A stretch of 64,000 nucleotides of DNA, taken from the NCBI RefSeq assembly GCF_006345805.1, contig NC_043008.1, positions 30,132,001 through 30,196,000 on the forward strand, read 5' to 3'. The DNA comes from Octopus sinensis. Its lineage: Eukaryota. Positions 3,716-62,897 of the stretch are shown here, piece after piece. Under the pieces are notes generated by a model that made no database searches, was not told where the DNA came from, and saw only the letters and a program-made list of their open reading frames with translations. Made by a program: the position numbers and the translations under genes. Position 1 is the stretch's first letter. Each line of letters starts with the position of its first letter.

Positions 3716-5034
3716 AAAAATAAAAGAAAGACAAGGTGTTTACATTACGAAAATAATTACAGAAAGATTTGTCACAAATTTCGATTAAAAAATGAGAATA
3801 GGAAAGATCTAGCCAACATAAGAAATAACATTAACTAGTAAATACTAATAAGGCACAATATTAAGAGTGAATTGGTGGCATTATTGGTAGGTATGTCCAT
3901 TGATTGTCATGTAAACAGCATGTTTTGGCTGTTGTCAATCCGTCTCTCATTGTCTATCGTTACTTGGTATGCAGGAAATGAGGTTGAATGTGGATACAAA
4001 AATCTAAGTTTTACTTTCTACTTCAATTTATGACATACAAAAGATCATCTATAGGTCACTTCAGGATATGTATTGTATGCAGAAGTGAAATGAGGCGGGA
4101 GAGTTATTCACTGCCTTCACACGTGATAATGGACGCACGTGTGCATTTTGTTACTCTGCGTGTATGCGCGCGCTTGCGTATGCGTGTGTATGAGTGACTG
4201 TTGTAAATAAGAGTGTCTAAATGTTGTGACTGTATGCGTGTGCGTGCTTATATATCTAATATAGAGAATAAAAAGATGTTACCATGCCCCGTTGTGGAGT
4301 TAGAGTGTCTTGAACGTCTTGTTCTTTTTGTTCAGTCGGGAATTTCGCCCATGATATCAAGGTCTATGAAGATCAAATAGAACACAATGATATCAAGTCC
4401 AATAGAGATATATTGGTGTTTTTTATATATTTCATTTTTTTTTGCGAATTGTATTTATTTATAATCTTGCATAATACAGTGTCGTTGCAAGCGTTTCTGT
4501 GTCACAATTGAAGTCAGCCTTACACTGTCTTATAGACCCAAACACTGGGCTACTTGGTGGTCGATTAAAATATCGTACCACTTGATTGGAAATGGTAGAT
4601 ATGTCTTGTAACTTTTGAGATCGATGATGTATCTGCATTGTCCTGCTCCTTTCGGAGCATATTACAAAAGTAAAAACTGTACACGTTGTGTAAGAAGCAA
4701 TATATGATGGTCTGTTATAATGCATTCTTCAGCAGAGAGGGTGCCAGGCAGATCCCTACTTTTAGGATGCATTAGTAATTAAAAGGTTGAATCTTGCCTC
4801 TGGATATATTTCTGTCACAGAAAATGTGATGACATGGGATGCGCAACCCAGTATTAAATAGTCATTGCAAAGATTTTCTCTTTTGTCTTATACCCTAGGG
4901 GCAGTCCTTGTTATTGCAGCGTTCCGATCAATGCGTGCGCCCTCGATGATAAAATACTAGCAGCTGCGTGGCAAAACATTGTGCTCATTTATGATTTACC
5001 TGTCACGCTTTCTTTTAAAATTTATTATTTTATA

Positions 5035-49158: not shown

Positions 49159-49680
49159 TAAAATCAAAATAAGCAACAGGGATATCCAGAGTTAAAGCAG
49201 TACGATCGTTTCAAGCAACTCCATTTAATTGAACAATGCAATCTTTACATCAATTTAAATGCAGAGCAATCCTCAGTTGCATAAAGACAGAATTTAATTA
49301 AATTAAAACAGATGGACACATTAGTATAATTTTACATAAAATCTCCAAGAAGGTAAGCTTCTATTCTGAAGTGAAGACAGTATGTTCTTTGTATATCTAC
49401 TTACCTTCTTGGAGATTTTAGGTAATAGTATACCAATGTGTCCATCTATTTTAATTTAATTAAATTCTGTCTTTATGATGCTGAGGATTGCTCTGCATTT
49501 AAATTGATGCAATGATTGCATTGTTCAATTAAATGGAGTTGCTTGAAACGATCGTACTCCATTACCTCTGGATATCCTTGTTGCTTATTTCGATTTTAAT
49601 CACCTTATTTTGAAATTGTAAGGATAATACCGTACTAAATTCTGGTGCCTTAACTGAAGTACCATCTTCATCTGAATCTA
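49159..49680. mobile_element. Foldback PLE-pLTR-like element with two HHRs and right tail
   Basis: Arms 49159-49357 and 49400-49598, tail 49599-49680 to a TA run. Confidence 0.85.
49477..49560 (+). ncRNA. Hammerhead motif with long stem II (mirror copy 49197-49280, minus)
   Basis: CUGAGGA-long hairpin (CAUUUAAAUUGA..UCAAUUAAAUG)-GAAA C-GAUC-G UA; stem I partly decayed. Confidence 0.6.
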
Positions 49681-57690: not shown

Positions 57691-58623
57691 GAATTTCGAA
57701 CTAATGTTAATACACAACTAAATAGTTCCGAGGTTTTAGTACTTTAAATGATTTTACAGAGAATTTCAAAATATATAGCAATTCACTACTCAGAAATTTG
57801 GACGAATGTTGCAAGGCGTAAATATTGTTTTTATCGATTCTATTAATTCAATGAACCGTTACGACTTTCTAATGTATATTATATTTATCAAGCAAATGCC
57901 CGAAACACTATTTTTTCCTAAATTGCAGCCAACTGTCTCCTAGTGCAACATTTTTGCTTTCTCCCTCTTTTCTCCCCGTTATTCTTTCGATAGTTTCTGT
58001 CTCAATTATTATCGTAATAACTGAATTATCAAAACAAGAATATCTTTCTTTACAAGGCTGTACTACTAAATTTATATCTAGAAAAATCTGAAGTGACTGC
58101 CGGCAAAAGCTAAGCTATTCATATAGCGGAAATTATATTTTTCACTCTCTAACCTCCTGCATGATTAGCTTTTGATCACACACTTGTTTTAACAATGCAC
58201 TCAAGGATTCAGAAAAATACTCAAATGTCAAATAAAACGTAATTTATAAATATATATATATGCATTCATACAGAGAAGCACACACACACATACACACGCA
58301 CATATGCATATAAAGTCACACGCACAAATATAACCATCCCCAGAGACACAAATAGACATATATTATGTGTGAGTGTGTATATCAGAAACGAAAACCAAGG
58401 TTACAGGAAATGACTCATAATGACTAGGTGTATGTATTTGTACAACACAAATGAGTAAAGGTATATAGTTATCTCTACCTCCACAGTGAGTAGAAGAACC
58501 GCTTACTTGTAATCGAGGGTAACTCTAAACGAGGAGAGGAGTTAATCTCAAAAGTCAGAAATTTTCCAAAAGTCAACAGGTTTTTCATGAAAAAACAGTC
58601 ATATATATATATATATATATATA

Positions 58624-59876
58624 TATAAGCGAGAAAGAAGCAACAAGAATGGATAGGTTTTTAGTACGATCGTTTCATACAAGGACAGGTTTTATTAAAA
58701 GTTGCAAAGATTACAGCATATAAACGAGTCCCGTACTCATCAGCTAAAATACATGTAAGTTCTCTAGACATCCTAGTGTTTGAGGCTATACTCATGAAGT
58801 AATGTAGAAAATTAAACAGATTTCTAAAGTTCATTAAAGTTCTTTAAAGATGATGCATAGTCTTATCACAGAATTTTAAAGAAGTTTTGGTAGCATCACA
58901 GAGAAGGTGACCTAATCCATATGAATTTCCATAGATATGATGAGGGATTATATACTCACAGAGGACAAATTTATCCATTGTTATTAGCATTACAGAGAGG
59001 GTGAATTAATCCTTTGTATATATGCACAGATTCCAATGGTGTAGATGTAAATTTCCAGAGAAATGGAGATGAATTTCATATTCACAGGCGATAAATTTTA
59101 CAATGGTTGAACACAATGAGGTAGGTACCAATCCTTGTTATATGATTAGGTGTTTGCCATATTAATCACATTACTGCTATTCACAAGAGGCTGCAGCCTC
59201 TTGTGAATAGCAGTAATGTGATTAATATGGCAAACACCTAATCATATAACAAGGATTGGTACCTACCTCATTGTGTTCAACCATTGTAAAATTTATCGCC
59301 TGTGAATATGAAATTCATCTCCATTTCTCTGGAAATTTACATCTACACCATTGGAATCTGTGCATATATACAAAGGATTAATTCACCCTCTCTGTAATGC
59401 TAATAACAATGGATAAATTTGTCCTCTGTGAGTATATAATCCCTCATCATATCTATGGAAATTCATATGGATTAGGTCACCTTCTCTGTGATGCTACCAA
59501 AACTTTTTTAAAATTCTGTGATAAGACTATGCATCATCTTTAAAGAACTTTAATGAACTTTAGAAATCTGTTTAATTTTCTACATTACTTCATGAGTATA
59601 GCCTCAAACACTAGGATGTCTAGAGAACTTACATGTATTTTAGCTGATGAGTACGGGACTCGTTTATATGCTGTAATCTTTGCAACTTTTAATAAAACCT
59701 GTCCTTGTATGAAACGATCGTACTAAAAACCTATCCATTCTTGTTGCTTCTTTCTCGCTTATAATCACCCCACATTACTGTATTGTTAAATCAGTATAGT
59801 TTTTTTTGGTGCATCTAAGTTAGGTACCATATTCAAGTAAATTTTTTAAATTAACTTGAATCTTTATTGCTCTTTG
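58624..59876. mobile_element. Spacer-less 1.14-kb palindromic PLE-pLTR-like element with one-sided tail, between (TA)n tracts
   Basis: Symmetry centre ctg|cag at 59193/59194; 570-bp arms 58624-59193 and 59194-59763 with one mismatch seen (58881 g versus its partner); unpaired tail 59764-59876. Confidence 0.9.
59638..59728 (+). ncRNA. Type-I hammerhead ribozyme, intact core, extended stem II (mirror copy 58659-58749, minus)
   Basis: UUUUAG CUGAUGA GUACGGGAC-long loop-GUCCUUGUAU GAAA C-GAUC-G UA CUAAAA; 6-bp stem I, palindromic GAUC loop III, GUA triplet. Confidence 0.8.
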
Positions 59877-59879
59877 TAT

Positions 59880-59923
<44 letters not shown>

Positions 59924-60784
59924 CAAGCTTGCGGAAGAAAGGACGATAGCACAGCAACGGCAAACAGGACAAAACAAGATACACGAATCGTTCGCAGCCA
60001 ATTGCCTCTTCAGTCGGAGTCCGGAATGTCTTCCTAGTTTCGCCCAATTATCTCTGATACTACTCGAAACCGGCTGGGCCAGGACTTAAAAGCATTAAGC
60101 CTCTGGGAAAGCCAAACGAATGTACATATACGAAAACAAATAAGTAAACAAAGGAAAGTGACGTTCGATCACCGGACGAACGTAATATATGAAATAGAAT
60201 TATACATATTCAATGAACAAACGCCTTACGGCTATACAACTAAGGGAAAATAATTATTCAATTACAACAAAAATAAAACACGCGTGTAGTAAGCTAACGA
60301 AAGGAAAATGGAAATGGAAAAATGCAAACAGACCGGGTGGCAGGACAGAACAGAACAGATGCGACCAACCTCAAAGGCGGCCGGCCAAAAAAGGACGACA
60401 ATGCTTGAACCAGACAGCGATCACGTTGTAAGGGGGGGAGCAACTGAAAAGGGCGGAGAGACAAAGGAATAGGAGAGGGGAGTAAAGAAATCAGAGGGAC
60501 AAAAAATGAGAGGAAGGGTGAGAGAGAGAGAAAAAGGTACAAGGGAGATACGTGAGGACGGAAAGCAAAAGAGTTTGATTTATAAGTGGGAGGGGGAAAG
60601 AGTTTAAAGAATACGAGAGGGAAAATTAAATCAGAGAGATAGAGGAATGAGAAAGAGAGAGAGTGAATATGCCTTCCCTTTTGTTCTCCAACTCTGTGTT
60701 TTCTGAGCATTTTCGATTGGGTTTCCTACGAGTTAACATGGCCTCCCTTCACGACACTATAAACTTCATTTGATTAAGGTATCA

Positions 60785-62044: not shown

Positions 62045-62775
62045 TATGCTCAACGAATTTAGACTCGGTCAATAGTTTCTTATGAAATACATTTCGTTGT
62101 TAATGCGTTCATTTTGAGTAGCACTGTCTTTGAATTTATATTGTGGAAAAGTTGTGAATTTGGGATATTTATTGGATGCTCATCTGTCTATATGTTTGCT
62201 GACAGATATTTTCCAGTATTCCGGAATTCTAATGTGGGATTTGTGCACCGCCATCCTCTGACGTAGGCAGTTTTTGTGTGTTTAATATATTGCCGTTTGC
62301 ATCCCGAACATGTAAATTAAATTCTCCGATGCACATGTAAAGTTCGTTTTTATGCTAAATTTTTGGCTTTGTTCCAATCGGTGTTCTGATCTTTCTATTA
62401 CGTTGATACAAATCCCACAGTTTAGCCTCCAGCACATTTTTACTGTCGTCTTTGTGGCTATTGTTGAGTGTAATTTGGCCTGGGTTAAAGTCCTCTTCAT
62501 TAGTTTTGGTTGTCTCTTACTTATGTTCATGGTGTGTGTTTCGAGGATTTGATTCATCTTTGTCGTAATACTCTTGAGTAGAGTTGTGGTATGGAGTAAA
62601 ATGTTGAAGGCCTCACTGTTATGTGGGTTGTGTGTGGAGATGTAAGGCAGGGTTTTGAATTTTTCTTCCTTCTTTGGTGTTGGTAGTCTAAGTTCTTGTA
62701 TATTGAATTTAAGGACTCGTTGGATCGTATTGACGATTAAGGATTGTGGGTAATTCCTATTGATTAGTGTAGTTT
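62045..62775 (-). pseudogene. Penelope-like element RT-thumb/linker and GIY-YIG endonuclease remnant
   Basis: LINRNYP..LPYISTHNP..SKRQPK..CWRLNCGIC..FTCASENLIY, then after a frameshift CKRQYIKHT..LRQRMAVHKSHIR..VSKHI..RINNEMYFIRNY*PSLN; element about 61275-62780, 5'-truncated at a microsatellite. Confidence 0.85.
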
Positions 62776-62897
62776 TAGTACATATATATATATGTGTGTG
62801 TGTATATGTATATATATGCACGTGTGTTTGTGTGTGTCTCCATGTATAAAACAAATGATAGGAACGAAAAATGTAATATACGACAAATTTTATTGTT

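What the first reader, a model, noticed from the sequence alone, without database searches (positions are those of the whole stretch)
58624..59876. Spacer-less, near-perfect 1.14-kb palindrome with a ribozyme in each arm and a one-sided tail
Seen: two 570-bp arms meet at ctg|cag with zero spacer and one visible mismatch. Each arm carries an intact HHR pointing outward, only the right arm continues into a 113-bp tail, and both ends join (TA)n. Such palindromes are normally unstable, so this looks very recent. Inference: it formed by fold-back (self-primed) second-strand synthesis during PLE retrotransposition. A transcript from either strand would form about 570 bp of dsRNA, with the HHR able to fold only if it outcompetes the hairpin.
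Basis: partly seen in the sequence, partly recalled or inferred. Interest (0 to 1): 0.75.

Follow-up and report, generated by a model that had tools for sequence, protein, structure and literature searches.

The report
Back-to-back Penelope retrotransposon ends
The mirror-image sequence is in the assembly as described and is a short insertion of a young, abundant Penelope-type jumping gene, a kind already known to leave such back-to-back ends; its many sister copies suggest that both cut DNA strands likely start copying the same RNA at two fixed sites and that the two copies are then likely joined at a short natural palindrome.

Summary
Confirmed in the assembly: two 570-bp arms, no spacer, one mismatch, a hammerhead motif in each arm, a 113-bp tail on the right only, (TA)n on both sides. 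It is a 5'-truncated insertion of a young Hydra-clade Penelope-like element (4.56-kb unit; 947-codon RT/GIY-YIG frame in a sister copy). Inverted arm plus one-sided tail is the published PLE architecture, and this scan found such palindromes before in this genome. The structure is common here: 924 exact internal-end junctions against 1,010 read-through arms; 89 of 100 sampled internal ends have an inverted partner, 6 of the 89 with zero spacer. A second locus folds at the same GCTG|CAGC, and 10 loci fold at TCTTT|AAAGA, so an assembly artefact is unlikely. Simple fold-back is not enough: the inverted arm is the longer one in 23 of 89, internal-ended solo copies exist, and 705 of 924 internal ends carry a G seen in only 2 read-through copies. 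Best reading (inferred): twin priming from both target strands at two fixed RNA sites, then microhomology joining. Not shown: reads spanning this locus, ribozyme activity, transcription.

The parts
58601..58627 (.). Left (TA)n target, 13.5 copies; its last 4 nt (TATA) also read as the arm's end
58624..59193 (-). Inverted arm: 5'-truncated PLE 3' region ending at the internal site (parent unit about 3883-4452), T-type end
58659..58749 (-). Hammerhead motif, left arm (mirror of 59638-59728)
59190..59197 (.). GCTGCAGC, a natural 8-nt palindrome of the parent subfamily; centre of the inversion, 8-nt overlap of the two arms
59194..59763 (+). Direct arm, non-coding 3' region/pLTR of the element
59424..59424 (+). 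Rare variant shared by both arms (C; 1 of 157 other aligned pieces)
59506..59506 (+). The one mismatch: right arm has the family base (185 of 185 other pieces), left arm (58881) differs
59578..59578 (+). Rare variant shared by both arms (T; 7 of 224 other aligned pieces)
59638..59728 (+). Type I hammerhead motif with long stem II and palindromic minimal stem III; predicted cut after 59722
59764..59876 (+). 113-nt tail: the stretch between the internal end and the outer end of the element; in tandem copies the ORF's likely ATG follows 54 nt later
59877..59921 (.). Right (TA)n target

Best explanation
This is a 5'-truncated insertion, in a (TA)n repeat, of a young Hydra-clade Penelope-like retrotransposon, made of one inverted arm ending at the family's fixed internal site and one direct arm ending at its fixed outer site, and it likely formed by twin priming: both nicked target strands likely primed reverse transcription of the same RNA, and the two cDNAs were likely joined at the natural palindrome GCTGCAGC. 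Shown: family, parent ORF, the two fixed ends, the TA target, the common origin of the arms, the centre on a parent palindrome, recurrence at other loci. Inferred: the element's GIY-YIG nuclease cuts both strands of (TA)n; one 3' end starts at the tail end and the other 113 nt upstream, so the tail is the distance between two start sites; the two antisense cDNAs are joined through 3'-end microhomology, either by direct annealing of the two ends or by one end folding back and its sense copy pairing with the other cDNA (these give the same junction and were not told apart); host repair fills in. The hammerheads are passengers of the duplicated pLTR.
For: Parent and clade. Two fixed ends: 219 T-type plus 705 G-type internal ends joined to (TA)n, against 1,010 read-through arms. 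Asymmetry: of 89 partners, 84 end at the tail end, 4 run off the fetched stretch, 1 is complex, none ends at the internal site. Truncation points: 37 symmetric within 25 nt (permutation mean 5.4, maximum 14 in 10,000), 29 direct longer, 23 inverted longer. One template: arm-to-arm substitutions 0.3-0.6% against a family median of 2.6-3.5% in all three classes (71 of 89 pairs had at least 100 comparable sites), with shared rare variants in each class; two such at this locus. Microhomology: means 2.4 (22 of 28 resolved direct-longer junctions without insert), 1.7 (12 of 23 inverted-longer) and 3.9 (16 of 36 symmetric) against 0.8 expected. Same centre at a second locus with other flanks, other end type and without the two private variants; both belong to the haplotype in which the word is palindromic (13 of 15), while that allele is 34 of 229 read-through arms. 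Ten loci share the centre TCTTT|AAAGA, with mixed end types and at least two haplotypes. Internal-ended solos with TA at the truncated side: about 7 of 100 T-type, and G-type ones too. In vitro, a Poseidon PLE cuts and extends both strands, starts RT at two internal RNA sites that bound the tail, and is predicted to be a dimer (PMC11167929).
Against: No intermediate was observed; the model rests on genomic end products of one assembly that has many indels in these repeats. Two independent cDNAs would not by themselves stop at the same place, so the 37 symmetric cases need a shared RNA 5' end or a fold-back step. Later asymmetric deletion of a palindrome centre could also make inverted-longer copies. 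38 of 87 resolved junctions show apparent inserts, some of them artefacts of assembly errors or subfamily indels, and were left out of the microhomology means. The sample of 100 is T-type only (G-type gave 14/11/7 in 32 pairs). One insertion type with tails on both arms was seen (L013, L046). No short-read contig crossed this centre.
Confidence: 0.68

Rival explanations
1. Single-primer fold-back: one cDNA from the tail end folds on itself, copies itself to the internal site, and is joined to the other flank there through TATA microhomology or nuclease resolution; inverted-longer copies arise later by asymmetric deletion of the centre.
For: Strong excess of symmetric junctions (37 of 89); 17 of 89 loops of 4 nt or less, several on natural hairpins; arms share private variants; junctions with short templated inverted inserts (L058, L073, L162). 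PMC8557442 attributes the tail to EN-mediated resolution.
Against: 23 of 89 inverted-longer copies, by up to 3.2 kb, with the same microhomology signal; internal-ended solos flanked by TA on both sides; the end-specific G in 705 of 924 internal ends, which looks like a priming event and not a cut; RNA-templated internal initiation shown in vitro for another PLE (PMC11167929).
Confidence: 0.2
2. The palindrome is copied as a unit: a hairpin or antisense RNA from an existing inverted copy is the template (self-priming on an antisense RNA as in PMC3846280, or an RT jump across the stem), or it is a non-autonomous palindromic subfamily.
For: Identical centres at several loci; would explain a fixed end of the inverted arm and symmetric junctions.
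Against: G and T ends occur in every haplotype tested; no recurrent arm-specific variants in 92 pairs (87 differences in 23,015 sites; the top one, 4 of 44, lies in the hairpin hot spot); the two GCTG|CAGC loci differ in end type and private variants; the ten TCTTT|AAAGA loci mix end types and haplotypes.
Confidence: 0.07
3. Assembly artefact from fold-back (missed-adapter or chimeric) long reads at this locus.
For: Perfect zero-spacer symmetry is what such reads give; no spanning read was available; four short-read contig sets had no piece across the centre; arm identity could be raised by polishing.
Against: The arms lead into different flanks, and the left arm stops at the family's fixed internal site; the same centre and ends recur at an unrelated locus; short-read contigs of two other samples show the internal end followed by (TA)n (19 and 8 records) and cross-arm joints occur in all four runs.
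Confidence: 0.04

Closest known systems
Hydra clade of C-terminal-endonuclease Penelope-like elements, including Hydra-1_Obim of Octopus bimaculoides (Craig et al. 2021, PMC8557442; passages, section 11, supplement searches)
   Same: RWK, DKT, CxCX5C linker, C-terminal GIY-YIG, CxxC and CxH motifs, no CCHH, hammerhead in the pLTR on the sense strand, (TA)n target; an inverted 5'-truncated copy is noted for Penelope-13_HM.
   Different: Unit 4.56 kb against the typical <3 kb (2,507 bp for Hydra-1_Obim); asparagine-rich linker; hammerhead stem II domain of about 60 nt against short stems in the listed Hydra ribozymes, and a different ribozyme sequence from Hydra-1_Obim; tail 113 nt against 30-40 nt quoted for other PLEs; young and abundant.
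Penelope elements of Adineta vaga with inverted pLTR, tail and palindromic junction (Arkhipova et al. 2013, PMC3846280; passages)
   Same: Head-to-head inverted pLTR, tail on one side, overlap and palindromes at the inverted junction, asparagine-rich inserts in the ORF.
   Different: That paper reads the palindromes as self-priming on an antisense template; the junction counts here fit two primers on a sense RNA better.
Poseidon_Ac (PAc) in vitro system (Frangieh et al. 2024, PMC11167929; parts 1-2 of 4)
   Same: Both strands of AT-rich DNA cut and extended; two RT start sites bound the tail; predicted dimer.
   Different: Different clade; start sites lie inside the PAc ORF, here both ends lie upstream of the ATG; the parts read do not treat inverted arms or a non-templated first base.
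LINE-1 twin priming (recalled, no call)
   Same: Both target strands prime on one RNA and give an inversion joined by microhomology.
   Different: In L1 the two segments do not overlap and the internal site varies; here the arms overlap fully and the second site is fixed.

Membership tests
EN+ Penelope-like elements | Single ORF with RT and GIY-YIG endonuclease in the parent | tested here: met
   947-codon open frame in L032 with RT motifs read by eye (QFDI, GSSDS, YRDD); GIY-YIG Pfam hit on the C-terminal 153 aa, E=0.0016, 19.1 bits, below the curated cut-off of 22.6; the whole protein gave no Pfam RT hit; 25 homologues at E<=1e-20, 31-38% identity (one at 68% over 21%)
EN+ Penelope-like elements | Partial tandems forming pLTRs | tested here: met
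   Tandem period 4,564 and 4,548 bp in L037 and L038
EN+ Penelope-like elements | Adjacent inverted 5'-truncated copy and one-sided tail | tested here: met
   89 of 100 internal ends have an inverted partner; 84 of the 85 partners with a visible end carry the tail
EN+ Penelope-like elements | Hammerhead motif in the pLTR | tested here: met
   Core and stems present and near-invariant in about 250 aligned pieces; no Rfam match; activity not tested
Hydra clade | RWK motif and DKG changed to DKT | tested here: met
   IRWKTY and ADKTGN in the L032 frame against section 11 of PMC8557442
Hydra clade | CxCX5C linker, no CCHH in the nuclease, CxxC and CxH around the conserved E and N | tested here: met
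   CKCRIKSKC, CQLC and CVH in the L032 frame; read by eye, no profile
Hydra clade | Insertion into (TA)n | tested here: met
Hydra clade | Generally short (<3 kb) | tested here: not met
   4.56-kb unit; the paper gives this as a tendency; the excess is an Asn-rich linker and a long 3' region
Hydra clade | Placement in the RT phylogeny | not tested
   No tree with named Hydra references was built; reference proteins were seen only as cut text in the supplement
Naiad/Chlamys | N-terminal GIY-YIG and no canonical hammerhead | tested here: not met
   Nuclease is C-terminal and a hammerhead motif is present
Non-autonomous palindromic element (MITE- or retrozyme-like subfamily) | Copies share fixed internal junction and lineage-specific variants | tested here: not met
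   Junctions vary from locus to locus; loci with identical centres differ in end type and haplotype

The most novel reading that the evidence does not exclude
Penelope-like elements insert by an obligatorily asymmetric twin-priming reaction: one target strand starts at the tail end, the other at a fixed internal site of the same RNA, and the telomerase-related RT begins with a dC whether or not the template calls for it (untemplated addition or a 2-nt slide-back). This one reaction would explain the tail, the inverted pLTR and the spacer-less palindromes, and about a thousand junctions in this genome record it.
Probability: 0.35. Interest if true: 0.62.

Novelty: new member of a known kind. 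Interest (0 to 1): 0.36.

Why it matters
The locus itself is ordinary for a PLE. The value lies in the family: how PLEs make inverted pLTRs and one-sided tails is stated as open in PMC8557442 and PMC11167929, and this young family offers about a thousand junctions with two fixed ends and an apparently intact coding frame. The counts give sharp predictions for the existing in vitro assay: asymmetric use of two start sites, joining at self-complementary words, and a first dC. The family has also placed hundreds of long inverted repeats in the genome, which would yield dsRNA if transcribed.

Tried and rejected
Rfam: no hammerhead hit; miRNA-family hits at the centre are below their gathering scores and reflect the perfect hairpin. 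No frame of note in the right arm or tail. Sequencing runs: no RNA holder listed. Short-read contigs: the tool skips the (TA)n stretches, so an empty site could not be looked for; no contig crossed the centre in X1-X4, which proves nothing because hairpin pieces may be filtered and the source animal is not known. Target origin of the internal-end G (a TATAC|GTATA target): disfavoured, since TATATACGTATATA is rare (10 against 2,674 pure runs in the fetched DNA) and 2 of 3 informative G-type solos have pure TA on the other side; small numbers. Inheritance of the G from a master inverted arm: rejected. Editing signature among arm differences: 20 of 87 are A/G and 16 C/T, no clear excess; this is DNA only and no test of RNA editing. 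Variable-gap patterns count each locus several times, so only the listed end types were used. A first 88% identity filter dropped arms and was relaxed. Literature: 'Penelope + twin priming + inverted + pLTR' gave no PLE paper containing 'twin priming'; 'Penelope-like + non-templated + GIY-YIG + junction + reverse transcription' gave 0 papers; searches found no paper on this family. Subscription papers are not searched, so absence from print is not established; supplements of PMC11167929 were not read and may show first-base data.

Full report
OBSERVATION. The palindrome is as described: arms 58624-59193 and 59194-59763, no spacer, one mismatch, a 113-nt tail on the right, and (TA)n on both sides. 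A type I hammerhead motif lies at 59638-59728 and is mirrored on the other strand. It has a 6-bp stem I, the CUGAUGA and GAAA core, a stem II domain of about 60 nt, and a minimal stem III on the palindrome ACGAUCGU, which suggests a dimeric ribozyme as recalled for PLE hammerheads (Cervera and de la Pena 2014, recalled, not read). Rfam does not detect it. Core positions are near-invariant in about 250 aligned pieces, but the family is young, so this is weak evidence of function.

PARENT. The right arm plus tail has 1,742 first-look candidates in the genome; the 40 scored are 98-100% identical. Sister copies run on upstream of the centre into a tandem unit of about 4.56 kb. [quoted passage not shown] Its RWK, DKT, CxCX5C, CxxC and CxH motifs and the TA target match the definition of the Hydra clade (PMC8557442 section 11), which already has an Octopus bimaculoides member with a different ribozyme. 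The host is likely an octopus (inferred from a named protein hit). No tree was built.

TWO FIXED ENDS. Exact patterns find 219 arms that stop at the internal site with the template base T before (TA)n, 705 that stop there with a G, and 1,010 that read on into the tail; only 2 read-through copies (one contig) have the G. These are exact-match counts, so lower bounds. I fetched the first 100 of the 219 in genome order. 89 have an inverted partner, 11 do not, and about 7 of those 11 meet TA at the truncated side. Of the 89 partners, 84 end at the tail end, 4 run off, 1 is complex, none ends at the internal site. In 30 loci picked by the read-through pattern, 14 showed the end of an inverted arm within 1.5 kb, all at the internal site. 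One insertion type with two tails was seen among the first hits (L013, L046). The older family at 49159-49680 of this window ends at the homologous internal position.

JUNCTIONS. Loop sizes in the 89: 0 nt in 6, 1-4 nt in 11, 5-20 nt in 10, 21-100 nt in 18, more in 44 (L059 is a further near-perfect case missed because of an indel). By truncation point, 37 are symmetric within 25 nt, against 5.4 expected by permutation; 29 have a longer direct arm and 23 a longer inverted arm. 32 G-type pairs gave 14, 11 and 7. The arms of a locus come from one template lineage in all classes; at this locus they share two rare variants (pieces were de-duplicated by sequence, so a locus fetched twice may count twice). 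Junctions without insert show more microhomology than chance; 38 of 87 resolved junctions had apparent inserts and were set aside. The six zero-loop centres fall on parent palindromes of half-length 5, 5, 3, 2, 1 and 1. Only 5 of 652 positions reach half-length 4; a longer palindrome also offers more break pairs that give the same product, and allowing for that by hand the single 10-nt site is expected in about 1% of cases and was hit twice in six. Genome-wide that site is the centre of 10 loci, with mixed end types and haplotypes. The window's centre recurs once, at L172, with other flanks, a G-type end and without the private variants. Both belong to the haplotype that carries the palindromic allele, which is 34 of 229 read-through arms.

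MECHANISM. A single cDNA folding back can only give an inverted arm nested in the direct arm. Longer inverted arms and internal-ended solos point to the internal site as a second start of synthesis. That agrees with the anole PLE, which extends both strands and starts at two internal RNA sites bounding the tail (PMC11167929). Both ends here sit next to TA-like words (TATA at the internal site, AATATAT after the tail), and (TA)n is self-complementary, so both nicked strands can prime alike. I therefore infer twin priming on one RNA, followed by joining of the two cDNA 3' ends at microhomology. At this locus the join used GCTGCAGC, hence no spacer. Fold-back plus later asymmetric deletion remains possible (0.2).

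THE EXTRA G. The G at 76% of internal ends means a C as the first cDNA base opposite a U. It occurs in every haplotype tested, without arm-specific lineages, so it arises per event. A target origin is disfavoured on small numbers. Other listed ends also tend to stop on G before TATA, including two tail ends with a G not in the template. An untemplated first dC or a 2-nt slide-back are both possible; neither is shown. The window's own left arm is T-type.

ARTEFACT. Short-read contigs of two other samples show the internal end followed by (TA)n, and cross-arm joints appear in all four runs. None crosses this centre, and the TA runs are skipped by the tool, so presence or absence at this locus is untested.

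KNOWN VERSUS NEW. Inverted 5'-truncated copies, one-sided tails and palindromic junctions are published PLE features (PMC8557442 passages; PMC3846280 passages; the retrozyme preprint, passages, added nothing on this). Earlier notes of this scan report the same kind of structure elsewhere in this genome (the sequence look-up found none for this family). The family appears new within Hydra. The twin-priming reading and the end-specific G were not found in five searches of the held library. Verdict: real in the assembly, ordinary in kind, useful as a mechanistic data set. Interest 0.36.

Noticed in passing
window 49159-49680: A second, older inverted pair from a related family: arms 88% identical, loop of about 40 nt, hammerhead-like motif in each arm (core CTGAGGA), tail on the right, TA-rich flanks; 3,773 first-look candidates, the 40 scored 90-95% identical apart from itself; ends at the internal position homologous to the main family's.
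   Followed up: partly
genome-wide, e.g. L194-L223, L172: 705 of 924 internal ends carry a G that is in only 2 read-through copies; likely a non-templated or slipped first nucleotide.
   Followed up: partly
window 62282-62896 (-): 204-codon stop-to-stop frame that looks like a decayed thumb/linker/GIY-YIG region of another PLE (CxxxCxxC and NLIY-like motifs), read by eye only.
   Followed up: no
window 32013 (-), 61624 (-), 36709 (+): Further CTGANGA...GAAAC motif pairs; 32013 looks like a compact hammerhead.
   Followed up: no
L032:477-8004: Near-complete element with an open 947-codon frame and a 3.0-kb inverted arm; asparagine-rich linker of about 250 aa between RT and nuclease.
   Followed up: partly
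L058, L073, L162, L181: Junctions with short templated, partly inverted inserts, as expected from repeated priming and slippage during end joining.
   Followed up: no
L114, L153, L164, L080 and others: Older subfamilies carry an extra segment of about 30 nt near unit position 4093, where several junctions cluster.
   Followed up: partly
L152 (G000:C7:955403-960728): The whole inverted structure occurs twice in tandem, 1,584 bp apart, with the same junction.
   Followed up: no
P0023: A gene model named 'ankyrin repeat protein' of an octopus includes a stretch 68% identical to part of this element's ORF; possibly a mis-annotation or an exapted fragment.
   Followed up: no
window 59920-60600: The right flank is itself repetitive (contig depth in the hundreds to thousands), so 'unique flank' holds better on the left.
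   Followed up: no
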